Part shown: positions 1,136 through 61,610 of the stretch, piece by piece | How positions within the stretch are numbered: position 1 is the stretch's first letter | How the letters are laid out: the number at the start of each line of letters is the position of its first letter | Assembly (NCBI GenBank): GCA_965230925.1 | Contig: OZ246403.1 | Location: 266,455-330,454, forward strand | DNA from: an uncultured Candidatus Saccharibacteria bacterium | GTDB lineage: Bacteria; Patescibacteriota; Minisyncoccia; Phycocordibacterales; JACOZG01 | Length of the DNA: 64,000 nucleotides | Reading direction: 5' to 3' | Position numbers and translations under genes: made by a program | The notes under the pieces: generated by a model | What the model was told of the DNA's origin: nothing | The model's input: the letters and a program-made list of their open reading frames with translations, nothing else | Databases searched by the model: none

Positions 1136-3421
1136 TTATTCGGCAAGCCCCGTCCGAGAGTTATCATGATGGAAGGTCGGCCAGGAGCCAGGACTATTAA
1201 AGTTACCGCCAAAATCAAACACCCTCAATTCAGACCCTTGAACACTGCCATCATAAGACTTAATGTGTAGCAAATCAGACTGGCCGTCGCGCTGAAGATC
1301 AGCGATGGTCGCAGGCATGGACTTAATTCCTTGACGATTCCATTCTGGATGGAGCCCTATTGGCATCCCCGGCAGAAGACTTAAGTCGCTTCTATAAATA
1401 TATATATCGTCACCCGTTGGAATCGTCCCATCATTCTCTCCTTCCACTGCATAAACTAACTCCAAATCACCTCCGGGTTCTATATCATCGATGAGCCAGT
1501 TCCATGGTTCATGAGAGTGAAGGTGTTCCATAATAACTGGAGGATGAGCTACTCCAGAGGACTCATAGATAAAAGTGAGACCGGTACCAGCATTAAAAGA
1601 ACAAATGAAAATAATTTCTGTGGTGCCGTTATGATCCAAGTCTGCTGCCGATGGGCTATGAATCCAATTATCGCCAATGCAATACTCATCATAGTTAGTG
1701 TGAACATAGGGTCTCTGTGGCCAACCCGCAAGATCGGCACTATCTGGCTCTAACACATTAATAACAGCACGGTGAAAATTGAGGCCGAAGGGTGGATCAT
1801 AGTTTTCATGGCCAATAAACATTACATTGAGAGAGCCGTTATTATCGAAATCACCAAGAACCGGTGATTGGCGACTTAATTCTGGTGAAGCATATGCTTT
1901 GGGCCACCCGGGCAACTCTGAAGCATCCTGATAATGAACCGCGTGGAGTCTGGTGGTGGGAAGCTCTGATGTTTCTGGGGGAGCAAAAAACGCTTCGCCC
2001 AAATTAAACACAATTTCTACCTCACCATCACCATCTAGGTCACCGATCGCTGGACTGCCAGCTAAATTATGAGACAAAACACCGTCGGACCCGTCGATTG
2101 CAGCTGATTTTATAATAGGATAGTGGGAATTAAACAACTCACCATTAAGTCGGAAAACGAACAGCTTCGCTTCGTCCACCTGATTGGCATTTCTCCCAAA
2201 CCCTTTAGTAATTAATTCTTTCGTTCCATCATGATCAAGATCATAAGCCAGAACCGCAGGGATTGTCCCTGGTTGACTACCCAAGTCTCGCCCACCATTC
2301 GGCCAAAAACTGGCCAGAGTACCATCATAATTTAAAACCAATAACCGATTACTGAAATCGCTTCCACTCGTAATTTGAATAATGGGCAGAAGTTCTAATA
2401 ATCCATCATTATTAAGATCAGCGATACTCATAGGAGTAACTCTGGTTGACGAAACAATCCCACTACTCCCCCCAGAAACTCCACTTCGTGCTACTAAATC
2501 TACCGGGAAATTAGGTAAATCATTACCACTGGAATCAAGACCATAAAGACGACCGTTAATACCTAAGGCAAAGATCTCTGAGTGACCATTACCATCTACA
2601 TCAGCCACCGTTGGGCCCCAAATACGGACTCCAGGGAATTGTCGAACAAAATCTTCGGAAATTGAAACATTGGTAGGAGTAATGTTAATCGAGGTTGTTT
2701 CCACATCAACACCACCACAATTGTCGGTAACTGTGAGAGTCACATCATAATTGCCTAGAGAAGCATAGGTATGAGTGGCGGTAGCACCAGTGCCCGTGGT
2801 ACCGTCACCAAAATTCCAAGCGTAATTAGTAATATTGCCGTCAGTATCATCTGATTCTGAGGCGTCGAAACGTTGAGGATAATTTACACTACCAGCCGTT
2901 GGTCCAAAGAAATCAGTGGTTGGCAAAACATTGTTTGAACAGGGATCAAGCGCAACCACATTAAGATGAATCTGGAAATTAGCGGCTGCTCCACAATTGT
3001 CGGTCACAGTAAGGGTGATTGTCTTGTTTCCGGTGGTGGTATAGCTGTGCACGGCTGTGGAGCCAGAACCGTTACTACCATCTCCAAAATTCCAAGAATA
3101 GGTGGTGATAGAACCACCCTGATCGGAAGAACCAAGGGCGTTGAAGAGAACGGGGGTATTAACAGTCACCTGTCCCGCTGGCTCAGAGAAAGCCAGTGGC
3201 ACTGGAGGGGTGTTGTTTGCACAGGGTGCAGGGTTGGTGGTCCACTCAAGCAATGGTTCGGTGTTTCTTGGCACCGCCACTGGTGTTCCTTTACCAGGTG
3301 ACACCAGGGCTAGAAAACCGTCTGGTAAAATCGAAGAAGAAAGAAGATAACTGACATAGAAAATCACGATAAAAAACAAAATAAGTTTCAATAACCGAGG
3401 GGGAAATTCTGGTTGGGCCAT
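1136..3421 (-). CDS. Large secreted/cell-surface protein with tandem PKD domains and FG-GAP/VCBS (integrin-alpha-like beta-propeller) repeats
   Basis: 761 aa with an N-terminal TM/signal segment. Two PKD-like units are present (TITLTVTDNCGAAANF, YDVTLTVTDNCGGVD). Seven or more D-x-[DN]-x-[DN]-G repeats follow (DVDGNGHSEIF, ADLNNDGLLELL, YDLDHDGTKELI, GDLDGDGEVEIVF, GDFDNNGSLNVMF, ADLDHNGTTEIIF, ADLQRDGQSDLL). Confidence 0.75.
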   Translation of the reverse strand: MAQPEFPPRLLKLILFFIVIFYVSYLLSSSILPDGFLALVSPGKGTPVAVPRNTEPLLEWTTNPAPCANNTPPVPLAFSEPAGQVTVNTPVLFNALGSSDQGGSITTYSWNFGDGSNGSGSTAVHSYTTTGNKTITLTVTDNCGAAANFQIHLNVVALDPCSNNVLPTTDFFGPTAGSVNYPQRFDASESDDTDGNITNYAWNFGDGTTGTGATATHTYASLGNYDVTLTVTDNCGGVDVETTSINITPTNVSISEDFVRQFPGVRIWGPTVADVDGNGHSEIFALGINGRLYGLDSSGNDLPNFPVDLVARSGVSGGSSGIVSSTRVTPMSIADLNNDGLLELLPIIQITSGSDFSNRLLVLNYDGTLASFWPNGGRDLGSQPGTIPAVLAYDLDHDGTKELITKGFGRNANQVDEAKLFVFRLNGELFNSHYPIIKSAAIDGSDGVLSHNLAGSPAIGDLDGDGEVEIVFNLGEAFFAPPETSELPTTRLHAVHYQDASELPGWPKAYASPELSRQSPVLGDFDNNGSLNVMFIGHENYDPPFGLNFHRAVINVLEPDSADLAGWPQRPYVHTNYDEYCIGDNWIHSPSAADLDHNGTTEIIFICSFNAGTGLTFIYESSGVAHPPVIMEHLHSHEPWNWLIDDIEPGGDLELVYAVEGENDGTIPTGDDIYIYRSDLSLLPGMPIGLHPEWNRQGIKSMPATIADLQRDGQSDLLHIKSYDGSVQGSELRVFDFGGNFNSPGSWPTFHHDNSRTGLAE

Positions 3422-3431
3422 TTTATTAAAA

Positions 3432-6400
3432 TTAATTAAAATTCGGCAAGCTGGTGAGGCGCTGAATCAAGAGGATCAGGAGGTGCACAATAACAAGCAA
3501 CCTTTGACGCATCGTGGCTAAAATACCGGTTTGAGGAATGAGCTCGAAGGGAATGATGACGGTTTTCCCTTGATAGAGCTGATTCAATTTGGCGCGGGTG
3601 CTTGGACCAGCGAGGCCAAAACCCTCGCCGCCAGGACCAGTAATAGAATTTTCCAGTTGGAATCGCTTCACCGCCTCAGCCGTAGCCACATCATACCGAC
3701 GAGTGAAAGCACCGAGATAATATCCATTCACCGAGAGCATGTATTGCAGAATTTCTACCTGATCTCCCTCGCTAATACCGATGGCGAACGGACCAGTGAC
3801 CGCAGGCAAAACATAGCTCTGTCCAGCCGGCATGGTGGCCGCACCAGTATCAAGCGCCACCGTCGGTCGGCCATAAATATCGTACCCTGGGGTACCCTCA
3901 AGATCGCCACCAATACCACCGCGACTTCCTCCCCCACCACCCCCTCCGCCGCCGCCTCCACCAGAAGAACCACCGCCATCATCCTCATCTGCGGGAGTAT
4001 CGTCAGTTGGATCATCGTCTGAAGAGTCGGCTTCAAAGAAGTCTATAAGCGCTCGGTATCTGGGCGCGTCGGCTTCTGTTTGGCCAAGGTGCTCGAGAGC
4101 TCCCCAAGAACCAAATTCATTTGGCGTTCTAACATAAAGATAATGAGAGAAAACGCCACCGGTTATCTCGAACCAAGAATTAAGATAATCAACATAAATA
4201 TCGTACATTCGATCGTCACGATTGGCGGCTAGCAATTTAGCAGTTAAAGTTGAGTTATTGGTATTGCTACCTGTGGCCACCAGAGATTGACCTCCTTCGT
4301 AAGAAATAAGTGGTAAATTGTAAGCATCAGCAACAGTTTTATTGGCCTCCATTCGCGCCACCGCTTGGGGTAAATAAGTGTCTTCTAATTCATCGAGAAT
4401 GGTGTCCGTTGTGGCAGAATTCACTTGATTGTTGGTTACCAAGTCATCGGCAAGACCATTGCCAAAGTAAGGCGCGATCGCCACCGCATCAGCCTCAACT
4501 TCAGCCGAATTAATTCCCGACTCACTAAAGGCCGATAAAATATCGCTCAAAACCTGAGAACTCCCCGCTTGACCAGCAAGAACATTAATCACCCGATTGC
4601 TCTCATTGCCAAACTCAGTTTCAAAAATTTCAAAAATTTCGGCTGATCGCTTGGCATAAAACCTTCTGCGAGCGGCAGTGGCGCTACCGGAAAGCCCTTG
4701 AGCCAAACCTTCGGTCTCGGCATAGTCGTATTGGGTAAATTGCGGATTCCACACTTCATTGGAGTACTCCACATAAACTTCAAGCTGTGGGTCAAGATTA
4801 TCTTTAATCAGGCTCGCTAACTCCTGAACGTAATCATCATCTGCCAAGTGAGGAATGGTAAACCAAGGATCGATGTTAAGTTCATTGGCGAGCATAATGC
4901 TGTATTCGGGAGCGGGACCCTGACTCCGCGCTTGAGTGACATGATTAAGAGTGGTTCGCTCATCCCAGGTAGACATAAGTTGACCATTAGTACGGATCCA
5001 GTTCATCAAACGCAAAGCGGAAAAACCTTCGAGCTTAGTTAAGAAAGGTGGATAAAATGGCTCAGTGGCATAAGTACTCTCATAACCTGGCATAATGACT
5101 CGAATATTACTTACTGGATCCGCCACATCAGAACGCGTGATCGACAAACGAATGCCATTACTCGAAGGACTAGAAACAGTGAATTGATGCGTCCCGGTAC
5201 CGCCAGCTTGATCGAAGGTGCCAGAAGCATCGCGGCCCATTGTAATTTCACCATCACCTTCAAACATAAGAGTATAAGTGCCGCTCGGATACGTGCCAGA
5301 ACTCACATCGAGCATTACCGCCGACACAATTTGCGGTTGAGCAACTCCGTTGTCGTAAGGAATCTCAAGCGGATAGCCGAGACTGTCGGTCGGAACTGTC
5401 ACCCCACTCGAACTAAAGCTTCCAACATTACTTGCCACCCAAGGATTACTCCCACTTGAACCAGCTTGTTTGAACACATCGACGAAAACAATTTGGGTAT
5501 TGGAACTACGAATGGCATCGAGATTAATACCAATGGGACCGCCAGTGGGTACCGGATCGGGATCAACTACTGGCGCGGCACTTACTGTAATAGTTAAAGT
5601 GTCACTCGCGGAAAGAGCTCCATCGCTCACCAAAAGATTTAAAACATAAGTACCGGCCGTTGAGAAAGTGACGGTGGTACTCAAAGCGCTCGCATTGCTA
5701 AAAGTTACAGACGCGGGACCACTTACCGTACTCCAGGTATAGGTGAGAGTGTCGCTTGGAAGATCATCGTCAGTGGCGCTACCGCTTAAGCTCGCCGTGC
5801 TCGGGAGAGTAATGGCCTGATCACTGCCAGCATTCACACTCGGCGCTTGGTTAACCGGATCAGGATCAGCTTCCACATAGGCAAATTCCATTGCCCCGGC
5901 ATCGCAATCGGTACTTGGCCGAAGATTGCCGAACATGTCGCGCGGCACGGAGTCATGACAGACACCAATATCGGTACCGGGAGCCGAGCCACTTGAAAGA
6001 GCAAATTCATCGAGATTGGTGTAGGGCCAAGATCCCGTCCAAGGATTAGTCGATGTTTTTAAATTACACGAACCCGGACCGGTCGAGGAGCCACAGAATG
6101 TCATACCCGGAAAAGTGGTAGGGAATACGCCTGAACCATCGGCGTCATAGTAAAGATTATTATCAACTCTAATATCAGTAGCCTCGGTAACGGCTCCTTG
6201 TGTGCCCCAGAAACCGTGACTAGAACCGGTGTTTGCACCAACCACAAAGCTATTGTTGTAAACCCGCCAATGATCGGGCTCGTGGTAACTCGCATTACCG
6301 CTCTGCTCCGTACTACATTCCTCTATTCCAATTGCCGTGGCACTACTCGAGTTCTGGCCGTAACGCGTGCCGTCAAAAACATTGTTAGAAATTAATAAAC

Positions 6401-9008
6401 CCTGGACTTTGGTGTGAAGCGTCATGCGAACAGTAGAATTGGCCCGGGCCGAAGTGTCTGAAGAAAACACATTGCCTGTCATGCGATCATAGCGATGCCA
6501 CTCTTTAACCTTATCAACACCACAGTCGGTGGCGGTGAAGCCAACCATGGCGGTCTGAGTGTATTTACAAGCTGAAACATAGTTATCGACAAACATCTCA
6601 TCTTGGCTCGGGAAATCGCCAGCCGCATCAATGTTCAAACCATTTCTCATTGAGAGAATTCCCCCACCGCGCGAACCAATAGAAGCGGTACCCGATTCAT
6701 ATTCATGACCACAACCGATAACTTCAGCCGCCACACCAAGCGGATCGGCACCAGGATTCAAGAGTCCCCAATCATTGTGGGCCATGTAACCCTTGTCGGT
6801 ATATTTGAACCGGCCATTGAAACTGCTACCGTAATTACCATTTGTTTGTACGGTCCCAGCTAAGTCATCGCCGCTCATTGAGCCAGCCATGGCAAAGTAC
6901 TTCACCGTAGTGTAAATATTGGCGAGACCAGAGAGATTGGGTTGAGCACCCGGGCCGTATTGCGCCGCACTATCAATGAAGGCAATTTGATTATGGACAT
7001 CACCGGCGTCGAGATCGCAGGACGGGAAATTGTTGCAGTGCATATAGAGCGCCACGTCGAAGCGGTTAATATCGACGCGAAGCCACAAAGCGCGGTTGAT
7101 GACGGTGGTATTACTCGAATTGAAGGCCACCCCCGAACCATTATTTGCCACATCCGTTTTCCCTTGAACCGTCAGGTCGACAAACTGGAAATCGGAAGTG
7201 TTATCGGTGAAATTAATGAAATTGTTGTTTGGCGAAGCAGATGTGTCGAGCCAAATTGGTTTAGCACCCGAACCGTAAGCGCCAAAATATTTAGAACCGC
7301 TCGGGATCGTGATTGCACTCGCTGAAGCATAACTCTCACCACGTTGGAAAAGACAACGCTTGGCACCCGTGCAATGCGTAATAATCGCTTGCGAGAGCGG
7401 GCTGGCGCCGGTGGCCTGAACTACAGTTGCTCCTGCCGGGCAACCAGTGGTCACGCCAGCAACCGGAACAGTTGTAGTGTAAACACAAACCGTATTTGTG
7501 CCCGACCAATTACTATCGGCGCTCGTGACGGTAATTTGCGCCGTCGCCGTGGAGCCGTTCACATCGAGAGTGGCAGTATAAACTCCCGGCGTCTCGTAAA
7601 CGTGGAAGCCAACGACGCCAGTATCCGTGTCGCTATTCTTAGACGGTGCGTCGCCATTGCGATACAAAGCACCGCGCGACCAAGTACCAGCGCCGGTATC
7701 GCCGTAATCGTAGTTGTAATCGAGAAAGAGTCGCTCATCAGTGGTGCCCAAATTACTATCAGTCGTACCCGAAGCATCGAACCAGATGGCGCACGGCGCT
7801 ACGCAAGAGGTGCGAGTAGGCACAAGAGAAGGTGTTACCACTCCACTCACCGGTTCTACTTCAACCGCGCCGCCGGCATCCGGTGTCCAAGAGAAGTCCA
7901 CACCCTCGAGCGCGCCACCGGCGTCAATCGTCGCGCGATAAATCATTGTGCTACCACCCAAGCAGCTTGAAGAACTATCAGTACCGCCATCGCTAAGGTC
8001 ACACCAGGTAGAACCATCATCGGTACTATATTCTAGATCCACGGAACCGCCGGGCGTATCATCCCAACTCGTCGTAATATCAGTGAAAGCCCCTGTTGAA
8101 ATATCAGCGGACTCAAAAGTCCCGCTCGCCGCGCCACTACCGTCAACCACCGCACTGGCGAGCGCCGTAATTTCTCCATCAGAAAGAATTCGATCCCAAA
8201 TCGCCACCTCGTCAATCAAACCATTAAAATTGTGCTCACTCGCATTACTTCTGGCGCCAATGAAAGTCTGCGCCGCGAGAGAAGAACCAGTCGGAGCTGA
8301 AGTGGCCGCATCCGTGCCACACTCTGATCCATTAATGAAAGCGCGCGCCGTGGTACCACTAATGGTATATCCGACCTGAGTCCAAGTGTTGAGCGGCACC
8401 GCGGTTGAACAGGTGATGAGTACGCCATAATCATTTTCTACCCTGAACTGGCCGGTGTCATTGATCTGCAAACGGAGAATCTCGTCGGTCCCACCACTCG
8501 TGATAGAGCCGTGAATAATGCTGTAGCGACTGGCTGCCGCTGGCGTACCAGCGCGATTAATCCAAGCCGAAACCGTAAGCGTAGAAACACTGCTCACGCT
8601 AAGGGTCGGCAGCGTAATAGAGTCCCCAGTACCGTCGAGGGTGCAAGCTTGGCTAAATTGGCCGCCCGAAGAACAAGAAGCATCTCCATTCAGCGTACCA
8701 TTAGCGCTTCCCGCACTATCATTAGCATTGCCATCCATGTGCCACAGCATCACTGGTCCACCCGAGCCGCCACTTGCTTCAATTGCGCTTGAGCTATCCC
8801 AAGCCACATTGCTAAAACTCGCCTGATCAACGTAATCGAGGTCATCAAAATCGTCGAAGAAAGTGTCCACACCGAGATCAGCCGGCGCGGCGAGCTGGCC
8901 GCCCTGCTGACTCAACTGGCTAATCTCAGAAAAACCAGACCACAGCCCAATAATGAGAAAGAGAAAAGTGACAACAGCAATTAACTTCAGATGATGAATC
9001 TTGTCCAC
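3432..9008 (-). CDS. Giant (1858 aa) multidomain surface protein: N-terminal TM anchor, LamG/concanavalin-like lectin domain, parallel beta-helix (pectate-lyase-like) region, Ig/cadherin-like domain, TIM-barrel glycoside-hydrolase-like domain, poly-Gly linker, C-terminal peptidoglycan-binding domain (PG_binding_1-like)
   Basis: Uninterrupted 5.6-kb ORF. The LamG-like segment is TLSAWINRAG...LRLQINDTGQFRV...NGLIDEVAIWDR. NNVFDG-type beta-helix rungs follow. The Ig-like segment is SDTLTYTWSTVSGPASVTF...TYVLNLLVSDGAL. The GH-like segment is EVYVEYSNEVWNPQF. A G16 run is present. The C-terminal GDQVEILQYMLSVNGYY...AVKRFQ matches the PG_binding_1 pattern. Confidence 0.8.
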   Translation of the reverse strand: MDKIHHLKLIAVVTFLFLIIGLWSGFSEISQLSQQGGQLAAPADLGVDTFFDDFDDLDYVDQASFSNVAWDSSSAIEASGGSGGPVMLWHMDGNANDSAGSANGTLNGDASCSSGGQFSQACTLDGTGDSITLPTLSVSSVSTLTVSAWINRAGTPAAASRYSIIHGSITSGGTDEILRLQINDTGQFRVENDYGVLITCSTAVPLNTWTQVGYTISGTTARAFINGSECGTDAATSAPTGSSLAAQTFIGARSNASEHNFNGLIDEVAIWDRILSDGEITALASAVVDGSGAASGTFESADISTGAFTDITTSWDDTPGGSVDLEYSTDDGSTWCDLSDGGTDSSSSCLGGSTMIYRATIDAGGALEGVDFSWTPDAGGAVEVEPVSGVVTPSLVPTRTSCVAPCAIWFDASGTTDSNLGTTDERLFLDYNYDYGDTGAGTWSRGALYRNGDAPSKNSDTDTGVVGFHVYETPGVYTATLDVNGSTATAQITVTSADSNWSGTNTVCVYTTTVPVAGVTTGCPAGATVVQATGASPLSQAIITHCTGAKRCLFQRGESYASASAITIPSGSKYFGAYGSGAKPIWLDTSASPNNNFINFTDNTSDFQFVDLTVQGKTDVANNGSGVAFNSSNTTVINRALWLRVDINRFDVALYMHCNNFPSCDLDAGDVHNQIAFIDSAAQYGPGAQPNLSGLANIYTTVKYFAMAGSMSGDDLAGTVQTNGNYGSSFNGRFKYTDKGYMAHNDWGLLNPGADPLGVAAEVIGCGHEYESGTASIGSRGGGILSMRNGLNIDAAGDFPSQDEMFVDNYVSACKYTQTAMVGFTATDCGVDKVKEWHRYDRMTGNVFSSDTSARANSTVRMTLHTKVQGLLISNNVFDGTRYGQNSSSATAIGIEECSTEQSGNASYHEPDHWRVYNNSFVVGANTGSSHGFWGTQGAVTEATDIRVDNNLYYDADGSGVFPTTFPGMTFCGSSTGPGSCNLKTSTNPWTGSWPYTNLDEFALSSGSAPGTDIGVCHDSVPRDMFGNLRPSTDCDAGAMEFAYVEADPDPVNQAPSVNAGSDQAITLPSTASLSGSATDDDLPSDTLTYTWSTVSGPASVTFSNASALSTTVTFSTAGTYVLNLLVSDGALSASDTLTITVSAAPVVDPDPVPTGGPIGINLDAIRSSNTQIVFVDVFKQAGSSGSNPWVASNVGSFSSSGVTVPTDSLGYPLEIPYDNGVAQPQIVSAVMLDVSSGTYPSGTYTLMFEGDGEITMGRDASGTFDQAGGTGTHQFTVSSPSSNGIRLSITRSDVADPVSNIRVIMPGYESTYATEPFYPPFLTKLEGFSALRLMNWIRTNGQLMSTWDERTTLNHVTQARSQGPAPEYSIMLANELNIDPWFTIPHLADDDYVQELASLIKDNLDPQLEVYVEYSNEVWNPQFTQYDYAETEGLAQGLSGSATAARRRFYAKRSAEIFEIFETEFGNESNRVINVLAGQAGSSQVLSDILSAFSESGINSAEVEADAVAIAPYFGNGLADDLVTNNQVNSATTDTILDELEDTYLPQAVARMEANKTVADAYNLPLISYEGGQSLVATGSNTNNSTLTAKLLAANRDDRMYDIYVDYLNSWFEITGGVFSHYLYVRTPNEFGSWGALEHLGQTEADAPRYRALIDFFEADSSDDDPTDDTPADEDDGGGSSGGGGGGGGGGGGSRGGIGGDLEGTPGYDIYGRPTVALDTGAATMPAGQSYVLPAVTGPFAIGISEGDQVEILQYMLSVNGYYLGAFTRRYDVATAEAVKRFQLENSITGPGGEGFGLAGPSTRAKLNQLYQGKTVIIPFELIPQTGILATMRQRLLVIVHLLILLIQRLTSLPNFN

Positions 9009-9017
9009 GCTTTTTCT

Positions 9018-9659
9018 TTATTGTAGCCCAATAAATGAGCGACAAAAAGTCCGCCGGTGGATAAGGGAAAGGCCGTGGGTCACAATCGCCCGGCGATGCG
9101 CGATGGTACCGTAACCTTTGTGAATTTCAAAACCATAATTGGGATATTTTTTAGCAATTCGAACCATGTGGCGATCGCGCGTAACCTTAGCCACAATCGA
9201 TGCCAGCGCAATAATCGGCTCGCTTTCGTCACCGCGAATAATCGTTTTTTGATTAAGAAATTCTTCTGGCGCTTTTAAACTCCCATCAAGTAGCACCTTG
9301 CATTCACTGGGTTGGACTTTTAATTTAATTAAGCATCGCTCGATCCCAATTTTAATCGCCACACTAATCCCCTTTTTATCAATCACCTGATGGCTCACTA
9401 GACTTACCGCAAAATCGAGCTCTCCGGTCTTTTTTGCCTCTTTAATTTTAGTAAACCAAGCTTCCCTTTGAGTTTCAGTCAATTGCTTAGAATCTTTCAT
9501 CTTGGCCCGTTTTTTAGAGATCCTGGTGACAACCACCCCCACCGCCACCGGTCCAGCCAAGGGTCCCCGCCCAGCTTCATCAATACCAATTAAATACCTA
9601 AATTTCTTTCCTTTGCTATAATCCGATCGATGTTTGTTCATCTGCATAATCACAGCCAT
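9018..9659 (-). CDS. rnhB: Ribonuclease HII
   Basis: GIDEAGRGPLAGPVAVGVVV catalytic motif. The start is ambiguous: Met codons at 9659, 9647 and 9641. The gene is divergent from dnaE and overlaps its start. Confidence 0.85.
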   Translation of the reverse strand: MAVIMQMNKHRSDYSKGKKFRYLIGIDEAGRGPLAGPVAVGVVVTRISKKRAKMKDSKQLTETQREAWFTKIKEAKKTGELDFAVSLVSHQVIDKKGISVAIKIGIERCLIKLKVQPSECKVLLDGSLKAPEEFLNQKTIIRGDESEPIIALASIVAKVTRDRHMVRIAKKYPNYGFEIHKGYGTIAHRRAIVTHGLSLIHRRTFCRSFIGLQ

Positions 9660-18696: not shown

Positions 18697-19434
18697 TTAA
18701 AATTGCTTCAAAAAGCGTTCGTCACCAGAATAAAAAAGGCGAACATCTGGTATCCCATAATGAATCATCGCCAAGCGATCCACTCCCATTCCGAAAGCAA
18801 ACCCCGACCACACGCTCGGGTCTAAGCGAGAATTCACCAGCACTGAAGGATGCACTAAGCCAGCCCCACCCATCTCGAGCCAGCCAGTACCCTTACACAC
18901 CAAACAAGCCGGGTCTTCCCCCTTACAATTACTACATGAGACATCCACTTCCAAACCAGGTTCGACGAACGGGAAAAAGCTTGGTCGGAAACGCACCCGC
19001 GTTTGGTGACCAAAAAACCGTTTGAAAAATTCTTCGATGAGTCCTTTCAGTTCCGCGATTGTCACTTCTTTATCAACCAAAAGCATTTCCAATTGATAAA
19101 ACTGCGCTTCATGAGTGGCGTCAGTAGCCTCGAAACGGAAAACGCGCCCTGGAGCAATAATCCGCACTGGCGGTGGATTGGCCTCCAAATATCGCACTTG
19201 CACCGGCGAAGTGTGAGTACGCAAGACCTTGCGTTCTCCCCCATCTTGGAGCCAGAAGGTATCCCACATATCGCGCGCCGGATGATCAGCAGGAATATTA
19301 AGGGCGTCAAAGTTGTACCATTCCGTTTCAACTTCTGGGCCTTCAGCCACGGTAAAGCCAAGTTCTCGGAAAATTTTTACCGCGCGGTAAATAACCTGAG
19401 TAATAGGGTGCAAATGGCCTGACGGTTTTTCCAT
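18697..19434 (-). CDS. pheS: Phenylalanyl-tRNA synthetase alpha subunit (catalytic core only)
   Basis: Class II motifs are present (HPARDMWDTF, FRFEATDATHEAQFYQLE). The track start at 19530 would overlap tRNA-Thr, so the start is re-assigned to the Met at 19434 (MEKPSGHLHPITQ). Confidence 0.85.
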   Translation of the reverse strand: MEKPSGHLHPITQVIYRAVKIFRELGFTVAEGPEVETEWYNFDALNIPADHPARDMWDTFWLQDGGERKVLRTHTSPVQVRYLEANPPPVRIIAPGRVFRFEATDATHEAQFYQLEMLLVDKEVTIAELKGLIEEFFKRFFGHQTRVRFRPSFFPFVEPGLEVDVSCSNCKGEDPACLVCKGTGWLEMGGAGLVHPSVLVNSRLDPSVWSGFAFGMGVDRLAMIHYGIPDVRLFYSGDERFLKQF

Positions 19435-19472
19435 CGCACCAACTGTAGCAAAAAGACGGTTAAAGAAAAAGG

Positions 19473-19545
19473 AGCCAGTGGTCGGGCTTGAACCGACGAC
19501 CTGCTGTTTACAAAACAGCTGCTCTACCAACTGAGCTACACTGGC
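19473..19545 (-). tRNA. tRNA-Thr (anticodon TGT)
   Basis: Cloverleaf folded by hand: acceptor GCCAGTG/CACTGGC, D arm GCTC-AGTTGGTA-GAGC, anticodon arm GCTGT-TTTGTAA-ACAGC, T arm GTCGG-TTCAAGC-CCGAC. Confidence 0.85.
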
Positions 19546-21196: not shown

Positions 21197-22828
21197 TTAT
21201 TCTGGCTGAACGTCTGGTGGTTGATACCGGAACTGGAGGGTAACTTCATCTGCTCCACCCACTACCCCGAGCTTGACCTCATACGGTGAATATTGTAATA
21301 CCGGCCACAGGAGGTCATCGATAGTGATCGAGAACGGGAAACTATAGAACTCACCTCCATTAGGAGCAGCGAGCGGGGCGTGGAAGTCCCCGGGACTACA
21401 AGGCACATTAAAGCCAGGCCCCTCATCACCAAAGTTGCAATGGAACTGATTAATAGGAAATCCGGAAATGGTATTTATGTCCACACCTGTAGCACTGGTG
21501 GCCAAAGACTTAACTGAAATAAGGTAAACCTGGACACCTACTCCTGTTGATTCATTTCGAATATTCGCCCGTGGAGTAGAAATAGCTGGGATACCATTAC
21601 TTTGTTGGTTAATTCTGATAACCGTTTGATCGGTTTCAATATTCAACGGAGTACCGCCAGTATCAAGAGTAAAGGTCGCAAACACATCTCGGTCCCCAGT
21701 GATATTATCGAGTTCGCAGGTATTACCCACCACATTGTCACAATTACCCCAACTTACCCCATACAAGAAATCATCGAAAGAAGCTGTTAGATCAAGACTA
21801 GAAACACTAATTTCTTCTTCGCACTCTTCAGAACCATTAGCAGAGTGGACACAATCCTCATCAAGCCCGGTGACAATTCCCACTCCTGGTCCAGAAAGGT
21901 GGAGGGTAACCGTATTATCACCTTCATCATTCACGTTGAGAGCACAGAAATCCTGGCCTTCATTGCCGTTAGCGTCAATCACTTTTACATAAGCCTCAAC
22001 ACTACCTGCCGGATACTGGGCATCTGGCGGACTCTGCGTGGTGCTGCTGACAGGAGAAGTGGGTCCATAGTTTACATCACCACCTAAACCGGGGGTACAA
22101 CCAGGCCCCACCCCATTACCACCCCAACAATAAGTGTAATTAGGGGTACCACCAGAAACAGTGGCAGTGAAATGAACGTTTTGTCCCGTGATTGGATTAG
22201 GTGGAGTATAAGTACAATCTACACTTAATTGATCGATAGCAACACAATTACTGTTACTACTTGCCGGTGGGTCTGTTTGGCAAAAACTTAACCACCCCAC
22301 AACATTAGACCCCCACGCAAAGCCCTTTAGGTGACCTCCCTCTACGCTGACATCGTTTGTCCAAGAACCTGACATTTTGATCCACCCATCCCAACCACCG
22401 CGAGAAGAATTGGGTTTAAGACCAGACTGGCTACTGCAATCACCATTAAATACCGAGCAAGCTCGAGCCCAACCAGTAACCGGTCCGTCGGCACCATCTG
22501 CAGGAGCCTTGGCCGCTTCAAAGGGTGCCTCTGGTGGGCAATTTATCCCCGGGCACGAAGCGGAAACGGTGGGATGAAGATCAATCCAACCAATATTTGA
22601 ACTCCAGGCATAGCCATCGAAGAATCCATCAGGAAAAATGGAGACATCGTCGGCATCGAAGCCTACCCAACCGATATTTGAACTCCAGGCGAAACCGGAT
22701 AAATTATGGGCTCCACCATGAGAAGCTTGAGTTGGTTTAGGCGTACTGGCCGAGTAAAATAGTCCTGCAGCGAGGACTAAGAAAAATAAGACAAGCGACG
22801 ACCAATGAAGGTGGTGCTTTTTAATCAC
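21197..22828 (-). CDS. Secreted repeat protein (543 aa) with G[FY]AWSSNIGW repeats and a PKD-like segment
   Basis: Signal/TM at the N-terminus. Three GFAWSSNIGWVGF-type repeats. A PKD-like segment is TATVSGGTPNYTYCW. Confidence 0.7.
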   Translation of the reverse strand: MIKKHHLHWSSLVLFFLVLAAGLFYSASTPKPTQASHGGAHNLSGFAWSSNIGWVGFDADDVSIFPDGFFDGYAWSSNIGWIDLHPTVSASCPGINCPPEAPFEAAKAPADGADGPVTGWARACSVFNGDCSSQSGLKPNSSRGGWDGWIKMSGSWTNDVSVEGGHLKGFAWGSNVVGWLSFCQTDPPASSNSNCVAIDQLSVDCTYTPPNPITGQNVHFTATVSGGTPNYTYCWGGNGVGPGCTPGLGGDVNYGPTSPVSSTTQSPPDAQYPAGSVEAYVKVIDANGNEGQDFCALNVNDEGDNTVTLHLSGPGVGIVTGLDEDCVHSANGSEECEEEISVSSLDLTASFDDFLYGVSWGNCDNVVGNTCELDNITGDRDVFATFTLDTGGTPLNIETDQTVIRINQQSNGIPAISTPRANIRNESTGVGVQVYLISVKSLATSATGVDINTISGFPINQFHCNFGDEGPGFNVPCSPGDFHAPLAAPNGGEFYSFPFSITIDDLLWPVLQYSPYEVKLGVVGGADEVTLQFRYQPPDVQPE

Positions 22829-24069: not shown

Positions 24070-25377
24070 TTATTTCCCTTCTAGAGTATCGATCAAGTCT
24101 TGATAGTTCGCGGCGATTTTCATGACTGAATCACCATAGAAGGCATTAGCCGGCTTGGCCCAGTTACCTCCAGCATAATATCTAAGGGCCGCGGTCCGCT
24201 CAGCGGTAAAACCACCTGCCCCCGCACCAAGATCAGCCACATAAATACCCGTGGCCGCAAAAGCATCTTGAGCCACCCAAGGATTTGGTGGCCGATTACC
24301 TGTCGCGGCACCAATCCGTTCTTTGTACATTTTCCACGTCGAAGGAATGAATTGCGATGGCCCCATTGCTCCTCCCCAGCCGCCCGCCATTGGGCAAGAG
24401 AGTGGTAAACCTTCCGGAGCCAAACCAAGCTCTTTGGTAATCTCCAGAAATGGCGCTTGATCACGCTCGGGTTTCATAATTGCTTTCCACTGCTTTCCTA
24501 GTGGATCGCCCGGGCGATTACAAGTCCCCACATTTTGACCCAAATTAGATTCTTGGGTCAGAATCGCCATGATGAAAGCCGGCCGCACGCCAGTTTTCTT
24601 TGAGACGAGAGTGGCGTGCTCAAGCGCTTCCCCGAAAGAAATGGCGGTTGAACCACGCAAACGGAACAAGGCGCTTTTAATCTCAATCTTCCGCCGCTCC
24701 CGTTGAGCCAAAACTTGTTTATAAGCCGCCTGTTGATTCTTATTAACGCCCAAAAGGCCCTTTTTCTCGGCCTCATTACGCTCAACCCGGCGCTTCTCCG
24801 TTTCAATCACCTGCTGTGCATCAATCTCGGCCGCCTGCTTCTTCTCTAGAGAAAGCTTCTCACTCTCCGTCTCTGATTTGTCTTCTCGAAGCGCATTAAA
24901 TGCTCGATGCAAAGAATCTTGAACTGAGGTAAAAGAATCCACATTGGCAAACACTCCCGAGACGGTGGAGTCATCGAGCACGATCTCAACCAAGGAAGAG
25001 TTTTCCATATCGCGGACCTGGCGCAACAGCTCAGCAAGTGATTCCTGCTGCTTGGTAATCTTGGTCGAAAGAGTCACAATTCTATCCTTTTTCTTTACAA
25101 TATCCCCCCCTAGCTGCTCAATTTCTAGTTTCTTGGCTTTAATTTTAAGCTTTGACTGATCAAGCTGATGTTGGAGAACATCAATATCTTTTTGCAAAGA
25201 ATTCCCCTGGCTCTGAGCCGAGCGCAATAAAGCTGATTGAACTAGAATCTCAGCCTCTACCTTAGCCAGTTCAGCCTCAAGCGCTTTACGCCGAGCCTCC
25301 ACATCTCCATTGGTCTGGGCGAGCGCCCACCAGGGCAAGAGGCCAAAAACCAAAAAAATCGCCAGGATTTTCTTCAT
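24070..25377 (-). CDS. Secreted coiled-coil protein with C-terminal lytic murein transglycosylase (MltB/SLT_2-like) domain
   Basis: Signal peptide, then about 230 aa of coiled coil, then TQESNLGQ...GAMGPSQFIPSTW...ANYQD. Confidence 0.7.
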   Translation of the reverse strand: MKKILAIFLVFGLLPWWALAQTNGDVEARRKALEAELAKVEAEILVQSALLRSAQSQGNSLQKDIDVLQHQLDQSKLKIKAKKLEIEQLGGDIVKKKDRIVTLSTKITKQQESLAELLRQVRDMENSSLVEIVLDDSTVSGVFANVDSFTSVQDSLHRAFNALREDKSETESEKLSLEKKQAAEIDAQQVIETEKRRVERNEAEKKGLLGVNKNQQAAYKQVLAQRERRKIEIKSALFRLRGSTAISFGEALEHATLVSKKTGVRPAFIMAILTQESNLGQNVGTCNRPGDPLGKQWKAIMKPERDQAPFLEITKELGLAPEGLPLSCPMAGGWGGAMGPSQFIPSTWKMYKERIGAATGNRPPNPWVAQDAFAATGIYVADLGAGAGGFTAERTAALRYYAGGNWAKPANAFYGDSVMKIAANYQDLIDTLEGK

Positions 25378-30456: not shown

Positions 30457-31662
30457 CTAGATTCCGGAAGCCAAATTGTAGATAGGCATTAACACTGAGA
30501 CCAAAAGAACGCCCACCATCAAACCCAAAACTACGATCATTGCGGGCTCAATGAGATCGACGAGAGTTCGCACCTCATTATCCACTTCTCGGCGATAAAA
30601 TCGGGCCAAAGTTTGGAGAATAAAGCTCAATTTCCCCGACTCCTCACCCACTTTTACCATTTGGATCATGATATTAGGAATCTCAGGGTACTTGAAGAAA
30701 ACGGCAGAAACCTGTTCACCCGCCTTAATACCCACGCTAGCCTCGGTGAGAATCTCGCGAAAAACCCTATTGTCCACCACTTCGGCGGTAATCTCGAGAG
30801 CCCGTACCATCGAGATTCCCGAGGCCAACATGGTGGCCAGATTATCTGCCATACGAGAAAGATAAATTTTGCGGTATAAACGCCCAACATAGGGCACAGA
30901 AAGCTTAAAGTGAGATAGACTAATTTGCCCTTGCAAGGTTTTTAGATAATGTCGCAAAAAGAGAATGAGCAAAACCAAAAGAATGAACAAATAAGCACCA
31001 TAACTGACAAAAAATTCACTAACACCAATCACAATCTTGGTATAAATCGGCAGTTCTTGGCCTGTCTCTTTAAGAATATCGCTCAACTTGGGGATAACTA
31101 AAGTAATCATCAAAATCATTACCACAATGAAAGAAAGGACGATAAAAGCTGGGTAAATAAGGGCGTTTTTTGCCTTTGAGGTGAGTTCATAGGAACGTTC
31201 AAGGTAATCTGCCAAATAGTTGAAGTTGTCCGACATTTTTCCCGACTCTTCACCCGCCTTAACCATGTTGACGTAAAAATCAGGAAAAACCTTGGGATGC
31301 TTCTCCAAAGCGCCGGAAATAGAGACTCCTGACTTGATGTCGTCGGTAACTTGAGTCAATGTTTCGCGCAAAAAGGGATTATCGGTCTCACTAGCCAACA
31401 AACGGAAAGCGGATAAAGCCGAGACCTTAGCTTCAAACAAGGTCGCAATTTGCCGCGAGATAATAACAACATCTTTAGTCTTAACCTTATGACCAAGAAC
31501 GATGTAACTACCGAGACCGCGGCCCTCACCCACCTGCTTAATATCAACAATGATTAATCCTCGGCGCTGAAGACCGCTAATGGCGAGATTAACATTGGGC
31601 GCGTCGATGGTTCCATCTTCGACTTGACCGTCCTTCGTTGTGGCTTGGTAATTAAAAATCAT
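30457..31662 (-). CDS. pilC: Type IV pilus platform protein PilC (GspF family)
   Basis: 401 aa with three TM segments and two GspF repeats. Confidence 0.9.
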   Translation of the reverse strand: MIFNYQATTKDGQVEDGTIDAPNVNLAISGLQRRGLIIVDIKQVGEGRGLGSYIVLGHKVKTKDVVIISRQIATLFEAKVSALSAFRLLASETDNPFLRETLTQVTDDIKSGVSISGALEKHPKVFPDFYVNMVKAGEESGKMSDNFNYLADYLERSYELTSKAKNALIYPAFIVLSFIVVMILMITLVIPKLSDILKETGQELPIYTKIVIGVSEFFVSYGAYLFILLVLLILFLRHYLKTLQGQISLSHFKLSVPYVGRLYRKIYLSRMADNLATMLASGISMVRALEITAEVVDNRVFREILTEASVGIKAGEQVSAVFFKYPEIPNIMIQMVKVGEESGKLSFILQTLARFYRREVDNEVRTLVDLIEPAMIVVLGLMVGVLLVSVLMPIYNLASGI

Positions 31663-31668
31663 AATGCC

Positions 31669-32733
31669 TTAGATCAAGCGATCGAGCGCCTTAGGATTAA
31701 TTGAGTAACGATAAGCATTCTCGGCCGAAATTTCGCCCTGGCGCACCAGTTCAGCCAAAGAATGGTTGAGGTCGATCATCCCCTGATCAGACCCCGTCTC
31801 GATGACCACATCAATCTCGGCAGTGCGACCCTCACGAATCAGGTTTGCCACAGCATTATTATTAATTAAGAGTTCATAGGCTGGCACCAGACCTCCCGCC
31901 GAACGCGGAACCAGGCGCTGAGAAAAAATCCCGAGAAGAGAACTGGCAAGCTGGACCCGAATCTGCCGCTGTTGATTGGGTGGAAAAGAATCGAGGATAC
32001 GATCCACCGTTTGGGAAGCACTGTTGGTATGAAGGGTTGAGAAAATGAGATGACCCGTCTCTGCCGCTGTTACCGCCGTGGCAATAGTTTCTGGTTCGCG
32101 CATTTCTCCCACCATCGCCACGTTTACATCCTGACGGAACATCGAACGCAAAGCGGTCCTAAAAGAATGGGTATCAAAGCGCACTTCGCGCTGATCAATA
32201 ATGGAACGATCATTCTGGAAAATGTACTCAATCGGATCTTCGATGGTAATAATATGCTCAGACCGCTCTTGATTTATGAGCTGAATAAGAGCAGCTAGGG
32301 TCGTCGATTTCCCCTGCCCAACCGGTCCAACAATGAGAAAAAAGCCCTGCTCCCGCCGAGCAAAATCGGCCAAGCGATCGGGTAAATTGAGCTCGGAAAG
32401 CGGCTTGATTTTATTAGGAATTAAGCGAAAAGCGGCGCCCACCACCCCCTTCTGATAAAAAGCGTTACCGCGGAACCGAATCCCGCCCGGGACACTGTAA
32501 GAAAAGTCTATTTCTTTACTCTCGAGGAACAGAGCGCGATTTTTCTCACTCAAAGCCTCCATCACCATCCCAAGCGTATCGTCTGGCGTGAGTTCTGGTT
32601 TTTTAACAATCGGAATGAGATCCCCCGAAACACGGATGGACGGGTGCCGCCCCGCGGTTAAGTGAAGATCACTCGCCCCTTCGCGAGTCACGATCACAAT
32701 TAAATCTTCGAGCTCTTTTTTATAGTCGGTCAT
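31669..32733 (-). CDS. pilT: Twitching-motility retraction ATPase PilT
   Basis: Walker A (GPVGQGKST), Asp box, Walker B, and an AIRNLIRE-like motif (AVANLIREGR). Confidence 0.9.
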   Translation of the reverse strand: MTDYKKELEDLIVIVTREGASDLHLTAGRHPSIRVSGDLIPIVKKPELTPDDTLGMVMEALSEKNRALFLESKEIDFSYSVPGGIRFRGNAFYQKGVVGAAFRLIPNKIKPLSELNLPDRLADFARREQGFFLIVGPVGQGKSTTLAALIQLINQERSEHIITIEDPIEYIFQNDRSIIDQREVRFDTHSFRTALRSMFRQDVNVAMVGEMREPETIATAVTAAETGHLIFSTLHTNSASQTVDRILDSFPPNQQRQIRVQLASSLLGIFSQRLVPRSAGGLVPAYELLINNNAVANLIREGRTAEIDVVIETGSDQGMIDLNHSLAELVRQGEISAENAYRYSINPKALDRLI

Positions 32734-33140: not shown

Positions 33141-33152
33141 GGTTTAAGTATA

Positions 33153-34727: not shown

Positions 34728-34732
34728 GAGGC

Positions 34733-35065: not shown

Positions 35066-35066
35066 A

Positions 35067-35615: not shown

Positions 35616-35616
35616 A

Positions 35617-58546: not shown

Positions 58547-58604
58547 TTCAAATACTAATTCTCACGAATAGAAACGAACACTAACAAACAATCAAAAAGT
58601 GCTT

Positions 58605-61610
<3,006 letters not shown>

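What the first reader, a model, noticed from the sequence alone, without database searches (positions are those of the whole stretch)
3432..9008. 1858-aa giant surface protein combining lectin, beta-helix, Ig-like, GH-like and peptidoglycan-binding domains
This single ORF strings together a LamG/ConA-like lectin, a pectate-lyase-like parallel beta-helix, an Ig/cadherin-like domain, a TIM-barrel hydrolase-like core (EYSNEVWNP), a 16-residue poly-Gly linker and a C-terminal PG_binding_1-type module. It sits directly upstream of a 761-aa PKD/FG-GAP beta-propeller protein on the same strand. Such a domain mix, with carbohydrate recognition, polysaccharide cleavage and murein binding on one polypeptide, is what would be expected of an adhesin or host-envelope-remodelling factor in an episymbiotic or predatory bacterium. 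It is uncommon in free-living genomes.
Basis: partly seen in the sequence, partly recalled or inferred. Interest (0 to 1): 0.6.

Follow-up and report, generated by a model that had tools for sequence, protein, structure and literature searches.

The report
Envelope-tethered two-module polysaccharide-degrading surface protein
This is a real 1858-residue exported protein of a small-genome, probably host-dependent bacterium. It joins sugar-binding modules, a tailspike-like beta-helix and an unannotated hydrolase barrel to a cell-wall-binding tail, so it is a plausible but fairly ordinary sugar-degrading surface protein.

Summary

- **Database hits:** Pfam finds Laminin_G_3 (aa 125-280), PKD (1053-1142) and PG_binding_1 (1748-1789).
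- **Hydrolase module:** Residues 1150-1668 have no Pfam, NCBIfam or PDB sequence match. They model with confidence (pLDDT 94) as a clan GH-A (beta/alpha)8 barrel and carry the full conserved residue set: R1333, H1387, N1417-E1418, Y1514, E1571, W1635. The module belongs to a large unannotated family of at least 2,690 proteins. In 22 of 33 genome loci its members lie among exopolysaccharide-synthesis genes.
- **Beta-helix:** Residues about 505-1045 model (pLDDT 89.5) as a right-handed beta-helix resembling tailspike depolymerases and polysaccharide lyases. Four family-conserved polar residues are replaced in this subclade.
- **Conservation:** An ortholog from 0.1-µm-filtered groundwater (2258 aa, 57% identical) keeps the same core order. 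The beta-helix plus GH fusion is otherwise rare.

My best reading is an exported, envelope-tethered polysaccharide depolymerase and lectin. Host-envelope attack is plausible but unproven. The individual modules are common in free-living bacteria. I rate it a new member of a known kind, of modest interest.

The parts
3432..9008 (-). Whole gene, 1858 aa, GTG start, TAA stop
   Evidence: identical gene call in public assemblies
8922..8990 (-). N-terminal hydrophobic segment, aa 7-29 (Sec signal or signal-anchor)
   Evidence: Kyte-Doolittle 19-residue mean up to 2.28; the ortholog P0126 has the same feature
8169..8636 (-). LamG / concanavalin-A-like lectin domain, aa 125-280
   Evidence: Pfam PF13385, E=5e-25; PDB 4qvs, E=3e-9
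7824..8141 (-). Unassigned region, aa about 290-395, probably a beta-sandwich; conserved in the ortholog
   Evidence: No Pfam hit. It lies in the N-terminal segment that BLASTP aligns to P0126 (query from aa 9; 50% identity over 375 columns, display cut). The fold was not modelled.
7509..7823 (-). PKD-like beta-sandwich, aa about 396-500, which always precedes the beta-helix in this family
   Evidence: The first ~105 residues of the AF2 model are all-beta. Foldseek matches PKD domains 1b4r and 1l0q. Relatives hit Pfam PKD at this position.
5874..7496 (-). Right-handed parallel beta-helix, aa about 505-1045
   Evidence: AF2 pLDDT 89.5, pTM 0.93. Foldseek matches GH136, tailspikes, AlgE4, RbmB and PL6 and phage beta-helix proteins. 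Relative P0128 hits Pfam Beta_helix.
5583..5852 (-). PKD (K319L-like) Ig-like spacer, aa 1053-1142
   Evidence: Pfam PF22352 E=1.7e-15; PF18911 E=5e-8
4005..5561 (-). Clan GH-A-type (beta/alpha)8 module with an inserted beta-sandwich, aa 1150-1668. Putative acid/base E1418 (after N1417) and nucleophile E1571.
   Evidence: AF2 pLDDT 94. Foldseek matches GH10, GH53, GH79, GH51, GH50, GH5 and GH1. Invariant residues. No Pfam, NCBIfam or PDB sequence match.
3903..4031 (-). Acidic stretch followed by a Gly-rich linker, aa 1660-1702 (12 consecutive Gly at 1683-1694)
3573..3773 (-). PG_binding_1 peptidoglycan-binding module, aa about 1746-1812
   Evidence: Pfam PF01471, E=1.5e-7, above the gathering score. 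NCBIfam SleB N-terminal region E=8e-5. PDB 5tv7, weak, E=0.06.
3441..3539 (-). C-terminal tail: IPQTG (aa 1824-1828) followed by a Leu-rich hydrophobic segment (1828-1856)
   Evidence: No homologs were found for the last 164 aa.
1136..3421 (-). Downstream gene in the same operon-like string: 761 aa with an N-terminal TM helix, 2 PKD domains and an FG-GAP beta-propeller
   Evidence: Pfam; 10-nt intergenic gap. P0168 fuses FG-GAP, PKD and this beta-helix family in one chain.

Best explanation
This is an exported, envelope-tethered, multi-modular carbohydrate-active protein of a small-genome (probably Patescibacteria/CPR-type) bacterium.

**Proposed mechanism**
- The N-terminal hydrophobic segment directs Sec export (inferred).
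- The C-terminal PG_binding_1 module and the hydrophobic tail hold one end in the cell's own wall or membrane (module shown, role inferred).
- The acidic and poly-Gly stretch acts as a flexible tether (inferred).
- The LamG, beta-sandwich and PKD modules bind or space a glycan target (folds shown, ligand unknown).
- The GH-A barrel hydrolyses a polysaccharide by the retaining double-displacement mechanism, with E1418 as acid/base and E1571 as nucleophile. The residues and fold are shown; activity is inferred.
- The beta-helix binds, and possibly cleaves, a polysaccharide chain along its groove, as tailspike depolymerases and EPS lyases do. The fold is shown; catalysis is uncertain.

**Likely substrate and role.** Relatives of the GH module lie inside exopolysaccharide-synthesis clusters. 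The most likely substrate is therefore a bacterial extracellular polysaccharide such as capsule, EPS or biofilm matrix. The enzyme would degrade it either to reach a partner cell's surface or to release sugars.
For: **Real gene with verified domains**
- Gene and Pfam domains.

**GH-A module**
- Confident model with GH-A structural matches.
- The clan GH-A residue set is conserved in 44 of 44 family members for R1333, N1417, E1418, Y1514 and E1571, in 43 of 44 for H1387 and in 36 of 44 for W1635.
- These residues sit after strands 2, 3, 4, 6, 7 and 8 of the modelled barrel.
- Twenty-two of 33 genomic homolog loci carry GT2, GT4, sulfotransferase, Wzx or RmlD genes.

**Beta-helix**
- The model matches GH136, CBA120 and Det7 tailspikes, the RbmB VPS lyase, PL6 and AlgE4.
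- It also matches phage beta-helix and EPS-depolymerase proteins.

**Conservation**
- Ortholog P0126 (57% identity) keeps the order TM, LamG, PKD, beta-helix, Ig-like, GH, poly-Gly.
- The partial protein P0001 shows beta-helix end, PKD, then GH module.

**Extracellular location**
- All 22 Cys residues lie in the N-terminal 1035 aa, which suits an exported protein.

**Literature**
- CPR genomes commonly encode giant membrane or surface proteins with PKD, integrin and fibronectin domains, thought to mediate host attachment (PMC8080830).
- They also encode ConA-like lectins (PMC12911398).
Against: - No activity, substrate or localisation data exist.
- The GH module matches no characterised family by sequence, so the bond cleaved is unknown.
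- In Bacteroidota and some other genomes its homologs are stand-alone genes with uninformative neighbours.
- The beta-helix subclade has replaced four polar residues conserved in more than 85% of the family: R608 to Q, H730 to F, E844 to T and R874 to S. It may be non-catalytic.
- The neighbouring genes are housekeeping (RNase HII, DnaE, NusB/NUDIX) and give no functional hint.
- The ortholog lacks PG_binding_1, and its C-terminal helix is not hydrophobic enough to span a membrane. The anchoring mode is therefore not conserved.
- CPR identity of the organism is inferred, not demonstrated.
Confidence: 0.62

Rival explanations
1. It is mainly an adhesin. The lectin, Ig-like and beta-helix modules bind a partner cell's glycans. 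The GH-like barrel serves as a further carbohydrate-binding module or has only a minor trimming role. The protein then works together with the downstream PKD/FG-GAP (integrin-like) protein and the type IV pili to attach to a host.
For: - LamG, two PKD-type domains and the FG-GAP neighbour are typical adhesion modules.
- The beta-helix has lost four family-conserved polar residues.
- Giant CPR surface proteins are generally interpreted as attachment factors (PMC8080830, PMC12911398).
- Type IV pilus genes lie in the same window.
- P0168 fuses FG-GAP with this beta-helix family.
Against: The GH-A catalytic constellation is fully intact in this copy and invariant across 44 relatives. That is not expected for a purely binding module.
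Confidence: 0.2
2. It is a self-directed envelope or EPS-processing enzyme. Like hydrolases encoded in EPS-synthesis clusters, it would trim or release the organism's own surface polysaccharide while held in the wall by PG_binding_1.
For: - Homologs of the GH module lie in EPS biosynthesis clusters in 22 of 33 genome loci.
- There is a precedent for a clan GH-A hydrolase (GH26 WpsE) in a sulfotransferase-containing EPS cluster (PMC13390465).
- The PG-binding tail places the protein in the producer's own wall.
Against: - No glycosyltransferase, flippase or sugar-nucleotide genes lie next to this gene.
- The EPS-cluster homologs are single-module proteins. They lack the LamG and beta-helix modules, which look like target-recognition equipment.
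Confidence: 0.13
3. It is a sortase substrate. The C-terminal IPQTG followed by a hydrophobic stretch would be a cell-wall sorting signal, and the mature protein would be linked covalently to peptidoglycan.
For: - IPQTG (aa 1824-1828) lies directly before the only C-terminal hydrophobic segment.
- IPQTG is a known sortase motif of pneumococcal pilin RrgB (my own knowledge).
- No other ORF in the window has such a tail.
Against: - The hydrophobic stretch is interrupted by RQR five residues after the motif and lacks a clear basic end.
- NCBIfam reported no LPXTG-anchor match at E<=1.
- The ortholog P0126 has no such motif.
- No sortase-type TLxTC motif occurs in any ORF of the 64-kb window.
- No homologs of the tail exist with which to test conservation.
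Confidence: 0.12

Closest known systems
Clan GH-A retaining glycoside hydrolases (4/7 superfamily: GH5, GH10, GH53, GH79, GH51, GH50)
   Same: - It has a (beta/alpha)8 barrel.
- Asn-Glu follows strand 4 and Glu lies on strand 7.
- The accompanying Arg (strand 2), His (strand 3), Tyr (strand 6) and Trp (strand 8) are present.
   Different: - Identity to any solved member is only 8-16%, with TM-scores of about 0.3-0.55.
- There is no hit to any Pfam GH model even at E<=5 for 44 members, and no PDB sequence hit with a profile.
- A beta-sandwich of about 120 residues appears to be inserted between barrel strand 1 and helix 1. This is inferred from the DSSP order.
Right-handed beta-helix polysaccharide depolymerases (phage tailspikes CBA120 TSP3 and Det7, V. 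cholerae RbmB VPS lyase, PL6 alginate lyases, GH136 lacto-N-biosidase, AlgE4 epimerase)
   Same: It shares the fold and overall size, and relatives are associated with carbohydrate substrates.
   Different: - Structural E-values are weak (1e-5 to 1e-2 against PDB).
- It is not detectably trimeric or part of a virion.
- Four polar residues conserved in its own sequence family are replaced here, so catalysis is doubtful.
Giant membrane or surface proteins of CPR/Patescibacteria (for example the 1392-4163-aa proteins of Vampirococcus lugosii, PMC8080830)
   Same: It is very long, is predicted to be membrane- or surface-located, is built from PKD, integrin-like and lectin-type modules, and is encoded in a reduced genome that also has type IV pili.
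   Different: It carries two enzyme-type modules and a PG-binding domain rather than adhesion modules alone. The taxonomic assignment of this genome was not proven here.
Wall-anchored multi-modular glycosidases of monoderm bacteria (SLH-, LysM- or LPXTG-anchored enzymes; my own knowledge)
   Same: The order is the same: signal, binding modules, catalytic module or modules, linker, then a wall-binding C-terminus.
   Different: The anchor is PG_binding_1 plus a hydrophobic tail. The catalytic module belongs to an unannotated family.

Membership tests
Laminin_G_3 / concanavalin-A-like lectin-glucanase superfamily | Sequence match to the family profile above the curated threshold | tested here: met
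   PF13385, 88.8 bits against a cut-off of 27.6, full-length match 1-150 of 151; PDB 4qvs, E=3e-9
PKD domain | Profile match above threshold | tested here: met
   PF22352 57.2 bits, PF18911 33.4 bits and PF00801 24.2 bits, all above their cut-offs
PG_binding_1 | Profile match above threshold | tested here: met
   PF01471, 31.9 bits against a cut-off of 23, profile positions 2-43 of 57. A weak PDB 5tv7 alignment shows the same helix pattern.
PG_binding_1 | Actual binding to peptidoglycan | not testable with these tools
   Needs a pull-down with purified sacculi
Clan GH-A glycoside hydrolases | (beta/alpha)8 barrel fold | tested here: met
   AF2 pLDDT 94, pTM 0.92. Most of the 50 listed Foldseek PDB matches, and 77 matches with E<=0.001 overall, are GH-A enzymes of GH10, GH53, GH79, GH51, GH5, GH1 and GH2.
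Clan GH-A glycoside hydrolases | Asn-Glu (acid/base) at the end of strand 4 and Glu (nucleophile) at the end of strand 7 | tested here: met
   N1417 and E1418 directly follow model strand 262-266. E1571 lies in strand 418-425. Both are invariant in 44 of 44 members. Strand numbering is inferred from the DSSP order; the coordinates were not inspected.
Clan GH-A glycoside hydrolases | Glycosidase activity | not testable with these tools
   Needs an enzyme assay
Any named GH family (Pfam models; CAZy) | Sequence match to a family model | tested here: not met
   No Pfam GH model hit for the target or for 43 relatives at E<=5. No NCBIfam hit. No PDB sequence hit. CAZy and dbCAN HMMs are not available here, so CAZy membership remains untested.
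Right-handed parallel beta-helix (pectate-lyase-like) enzymes | Beta-helix fold | tested here: met
   AF2 pLDDT 89.5, pTM 0.93, with regular short strands. Relative P0128 hits PF13229, but the target itself does not.
Right-handed parallel beta-helix (pectate-lyase-like) enzymes | Intact catalytic residues | tested here: inconclusive
   The catalytic residues of this sequence family are unknown. D606, D611, R644, R733, D808 and E836 are kept. R608, H730, E844 and R874 are replaced in the subclade.
Sortase (LPXTG) substrates | LPXTG-type motif, then an uninterrupted hydrophobic segment and a basic tail at the C-terminus | tested here: inconclusive
   IPQTG is present. The hydrophobic segment is interrupted by RQR, and the tail ends QRLTSLPNFN. 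There is no NCBIfam LPXTG hit, and the motif is absent from the ortholog.
Sortase (LPXTG) substrates | Sortase encoded in the genome | tested here: inconclusive
   No TLxTC-type motif in any ORF of the 64-kb window. The rest of the genome could not be searched.
CPR/Patescibacteria giant surface proteins | Encoded by a CPR genome | tested here: inconclusive
   The evidence is indirect. The longest contig holding the same proteins is 716 kb. The ortholog comes from a 0.1-µm groundwater fraction. The 23S and 5S rRNA genes are present without a 16S gene, the window is rich in housekeeping genes, and type IV pilus genes are present. No phylogenetic placement was possible. The genome was not found among the GTDB representatives scanned.

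The most novel reading that the evidence does not exclude
The 520-residue barrel may define an uncatalogued clan GH-A family specialised on bacterial exopolysaccharides, possibly sulfated ones. This ultra-small bacterium would then have joined it to a tailspike-like beta-helix and lectin modules to build a cell-anchored counterpart of a phage depolymerase. The cell would use it to cut through a host's capsule or EPS before pilus-mediated attachment.
Probability: 0.2. Interest if true: 0.6.

Novelty: new member of a known kind. Interest (0 to 1): 0.35.

Why it matters
If the reading is right, the protein gives a concrete, testable candidate for how a genome-reduced, probably host-dependent bacterium deals with the polysaccharide layers of other cells.

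The more useful by-product concerns the hydrolase module. It flags a large family of at least 2,690 sequence clusters across many phyla that no Pfam, NCBIfam or PDB entry covers. The family has an intact clan GH-A active-site signature and is repeatedly embedded in exopolysaccharide or sulfated-polysaccharide gene clusters. Characterising one member would annotate thousands of 'hypothetical' or 'T9SS target' proteins.

The whole-protein architecture itself is in line with what is already expected of CPR surface proteins.

Tried and rejected
- **Sequence searches of the two central regions against PDB** and a family profile against PDB found nothing relevant. The only hits were to T9SS tails of relatives.
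- **Pfam at E<=5 on 44 members of the GH-like family** found no GH model.
- **A homology search with the last 164 aa** (PG-binding module plus tail) gave no hits. Conservation of the tail and of the IPQTG motif could therefore not be tested.
- **A genome-collection scan with the full protein** did not find the source genome or any full-length relative. It found only GH-module homologs.
- **An exact-sequence cluster look-up** gave no organism names, and a literature search for the run accession found nothing. Taxonomy is therefore inferred.
- **The synechan (xss) cluster paper** (PMC8205485) describes no homologous hydrolase, so no direct link to synechan was made.
- **Contexts of Bacteroidota and other stand-alone homologs** were uninformative.
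- **Misassembly at the G-rich tract** was considered and rejected. Two assemblies stop there, but two others and the gene call on the long contig read through to the same 1858-aa product.
- **A murein hydrolase role** was considered and rejected. No lysozyme, amidase or transglycosylase module is present in this protein.
Full report
**1. Observation**

It begins 9 nt after the stop codon of an RNase HII gene (9018-9659). It ends 10 nt before the ATG of a 761-aa gene (1136-3421) on the same strand. Public gene calls on independent assemblies give the identical 1858-aa product. Two other short-read assemblies stop at the G-rich DNA that encodes the poly-Gly tract. That is a sequencing and assembly effect, not evidence of a chimera, because the read-through versions agree with each other.

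**2. Domain anatomy**

Residue numbers below refer to the full-length protein.

- **aa 7-29: hydrophobic segment.** Kyte-Doolittle mean up to 2.28.
- **aa 125-280: Laminin_G_3.** Pfam E=5e-25. PDB 4qvs matches at E=3e-9.
- **aa about 290-395: unassigned region.** It is probably a beta-sandwich and lies in the N-terminal segment that aligns to the ortholog. It was not modelled.
- **aa about 396-500: PKD-like domain**.
- **aa about 505-1045: right-handed beta-helix** (see section 4).
- **aa 1053-1142: K319L-like PKD domain.** E=1.7e-15.
- **aa 1150-1668: GH-like module** (see section 3).
- **aa 1660-1702: acidic stretch followed by a Gly-rich linker.** It contains 12 consecutive Gly.
- **aa 1748-1789: PG_binding_1.** E=1.5e-7, above the gathering score.
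- **C-terminal tail.** IPQTG (aa 1824-1828) is followed by a Leu-rich hydrophobic segment at 1828-1856.

All 22 cysteines lie in the first 1035 residues.

**3. The GH-like module**

*No sequence-level annotation.* Pfam, NCBIfam and PDB sequence searches gave no match for this module. This held for the single sequence, for a 44-member profile, and for all 44 members at E<=5.

*A large family.* The module nevertheless has at least 2,690 relatives at E<=0.001. Most are proteins of about 600 aa. Many carry Bacteroidota T9SS tails, and others come from Planctomycetota, Spirochaetes and further phyla.

*The fold.*
- An AlphaFold2 model built on a 44-sequence alignment is very confident, with pLDDT 94.4 and pTM 0.92.
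- Foldseek against the PDB returns almost only clan GH-A enzymes. These are GH10 Xyn10C (1.4e-7), GH53 galactanase, GH79 heparanase, GH51 arabinofuranosidase, GH50 agarase, GH5, GH1 and GH2.
- All of these matches have 8-16% identity and TM-scores of about 0.3-0.55.

*The active-site signature.* The residues that define the 4/7 superfamily are conserved across the family:

| Residue | Conservation in 44 members |
|---|---|
| R1333 | 44 of 44 |
| H1387 | 43 of 44 |
| N1417-E1418 | 44 of 44 |
| Y1514 | 44 of 44 |
| E1571 | 44 of 44 |
| W1635 | 36 of 44 |

In the model's strand order the residues fall after strands 2, 3, 4, 6, 7 and 8. That numbering holds if the short N-terminal strand 'GINL' is strand 1 and the beta-sandwich of about 120 residues is an insertion after it (this numbering is my inference).

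The fold and active-site signature of a retaining clan GH-A glycosidase are therefore met. Membership of any named family is not.

**4. The beta-helix**

- The word-indexed search found only two relatives. A full HMMER scan with a three-sequence profile found 1,529 relatives, typically proteins of about 600 aa with the order signal, PKD, beta-helix.
- Relative P0128 hits Pfam Beta_helix.
- A 49-sequence alignment gave an AF2 model with pLDDT 89.5 and pTM 0.93, made of regular short strands.
- The model matches:
  - GH136 lacto-N-biosidase (1.3e-5);
  - rhombotarget A;
  - the CBA120 and Det7 tailspikes;
  - AlgE4;
  - the V. cholerae VPS lyase RbmB;
  - PL6 lyases (all);
  - phage right-handed beta-helix, tailspike and EPS-depolymerase proteins, best 1.9e-8.
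- **Caveat.** The subclade containing this protein (with P0121, P0126 and P0127) has replaced four polar positions conserved in 86-90% of the family: R608, H730, E844 and R874. It keeps D606, D611, R644, R733, D808 and E836. Catalytic competence of this module is therefore open.

**5. Relatives with the same architecture**

- **P0126** (2258 aa) comes from a Hainich groundwater 0.1-µm fraction and is 57% identical over 1310 aligned residues.
  - It keeps the order TM, LamG, beta-sandwich, PKD, beta-helix, Ig-like (BACON instead of PKD), GH module and Gly-rich linker.
  - It then ends in fn3-type domains and an amphipathic Leu-rich helix, with no PG_binding_1.
- **P0001**, a partial protein, shows a beta-helix end, then PKD, then the GH module.
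- Among the 120 best GH-family hits and the 150 best beta-helix hits, only P0126 contains both modules. The fusion is rare, but the parts are common.
- **P0127**, a relative in the beta-helix subclade, sits next to PqiA and MlaD genes. The subclade is therefore not restricted to one lineage.

**6. Clues to the substrate**

- A scan of one genome per species found 33 loci encoding the GH module. They come from Planctomycetota, many cyanobacteria, Rhodobacteraceae, Porticoccaceae and other groups.
- I clustered the neighbouring ORFs and scanned representatives against Pfam. Twenty-two of the 33 loci carry GT2 or GT4 glycosyltransferases, sulfotransferases, Wzx flippases, RmlD or sugar nucleotidyltransferases.
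- Hydrolases of clan GH-A inside EPS clusters have precedent. One example is GH26 WpsE in a sulfotransferase-containing cluster (PMC13390465).
- This points to bacterial extracellular polysaccharide as the substrate class.
- Stand-alone homologs in Bacteroidota and other genomes have uninformative neighbours.

**7. Organism and context**

- The window is dense with housekeeping genes: DnaE, a class II aminoacyl-tRNA synthetase, GyrB, PheST, ribosomal protein S2, a release factor and GroEL.
- It also encodes an SLT lytic transglycosylase, HtrA and a type IV pilus gene set (PilM, PilB, PilT, PilC).
- The 23S and 5S rRNA genes are present with no 16S gene within 2.4 kb.
- The same proteins occur on a contig of 715,934 bp.
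- Together with the 0.1-µm origin of the ortholog, this suggests a Patescibacteria/CPR-type organism. No phylogenetic placement could be made.
- Published work describes giant PKD-, integrin- and fibronectin-containing membrane proteins and ConA-like lectins as common in such genomes, with a presumed role in host attachment (PMC8080830, PMC12911398).

**8. Mechanism**

*Shown.* The folds, the conserved GH-A residues, the PG_binding_1 module, the hydrophobic termini and the conservation of the core architecture.

*Inferred.*
- The protein is exported by the Sec pathway.
- It is tethered to the producer's wall or membrane by its C-terminal end, with the Gly-rich stretch as a flexible stalk.
- The LamG and PKD modules recognise a glycan.
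- The GH module hydrolyses an EPS-type polysaccharide by a retaining mechanism.
- The beta-helix binds a chain, with or without cleavage.

*Open questions.* I could not decide whether the N-terminal segment is cleaved. I also could not decide whether the C-terminal tail is a membrane anchor or a non-canonical sortase signal. The IPQTG motif is suggestive, but it is absent from the ortholog and its hydrophobic stretch is interrupted.

**9. Verdict**

- **Holds:** the domain mix is real, and a role as a surface carbohydrate-active protein or adhesin is reasonable.
- **Does not hold:**
  - 'host-envelope remodelling' and 'murein' action are not indicated;
  - the claim that such modules are uncommon in free-living bacteria is wrong;
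  - the symbiont context is inferred rather than demonstrated.

I rate it a new member of a known kind, namely the multi-modular surface proteins of reduced-genome bacteria and clan GH-A enzymes. The side result worth recording is that its catalytic module belongs to a large, unannotated, EPS-cluster-associated family.

Noticed in passing
window 30457-37357 (minus strand): A type IV pilus gene set is present: PilC (30457-31662), PilT (31669-32733), PilB (33153-34727) and PilM (36242-37357). This is typical of surface-attaching, reduced-genome bacteria.
   Followed up: partly
window 58431-61611 (minus strand): The 23S rRNA (58612-61611) and 5S rRNA (58431-58538) are present, but no 16S gene lies within the 2.4 kb upstream. 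Two protein ORFs lie there instead, so the rRNA genes appear to be unlinked.
   Followed up: no
window about 3915-3975; L037:1-60; L039:1-60: Two independent short-read assemblies end exactly in or just after the G-rich DNA that encodes the poly-Gly tract. Two other assemblies read through with an identical product. This is a likely coverage drop at G-rich sequence rather than a structural variant.
   Followed up: yes
window 5874-7496 (aa 608, 730, 844, 874): The beta-helix subclade (this protein, P0121, P0126 and P0127) has jointly replaced four polar residues that are conserved in 86-90% of the family of about 1,500 members: R to Q or H, H to F, E to T, and R to S. The function of this module may be changed or lost.
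   Followed up: partly
loci L003, L006, L014, L016-L018, L028 and L031 (sulfotransferases); 22 of L002-L034 overall: Homologs of the GH-like module in cyanobacteria, Rhodobacteraceae and Porticoccaceae sit in gene clusters with sulfotransferases, GT2/GT4 glycosyltransferases, Wzx and RmlD. These look like exopolysaccharide clusters, possibly for sulfated products. The hydrolase-like gene has no Pfam or NCBIfam annotation.
   Followed up: partly
P0168 (992 aa): One protein fuses FG-GAP repeats, a PKD domain and this beta-helix family in a single chain. This is a Rosetta-stone-type hint that the giant protein and its 761-aa PKD/FG-GAP neighbour (window 1136-3421) work together.
   Followed up: no
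window 9009-9020: The TAA stop of the RNase HII gene (9018-9020) is in frame with the giant ORF, whose GTG start follows after three codons. There is no obvious Shine-Dalgarno sequence in the 9-nt spacer.
   Followed up: no
window 21197-22828 (-) and 38224-40254 (+): Two sizeable ORFs (543 aa and 676 aa) lie among housekeeping genes and had no database family hit. The 543-aa ORF had none in Pfam or NCBIfam, and the 676-aa ORF had none in NCBIfam.
   Followed up: no
window 24070-25377 (-): A 435-aa protein carries an SLT_2 lytic transglycosylase domain. It is the only murein-cleaving candidate seen near the finding, and it is separate from the giant protein.
   Followed up: no
window 18697-19545: The mechanically listed PheS ORF (TTG start at 19530) overlaps tRNA-Thr (19471-19545). 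The true start is probably further downstream.
   Followed up: no
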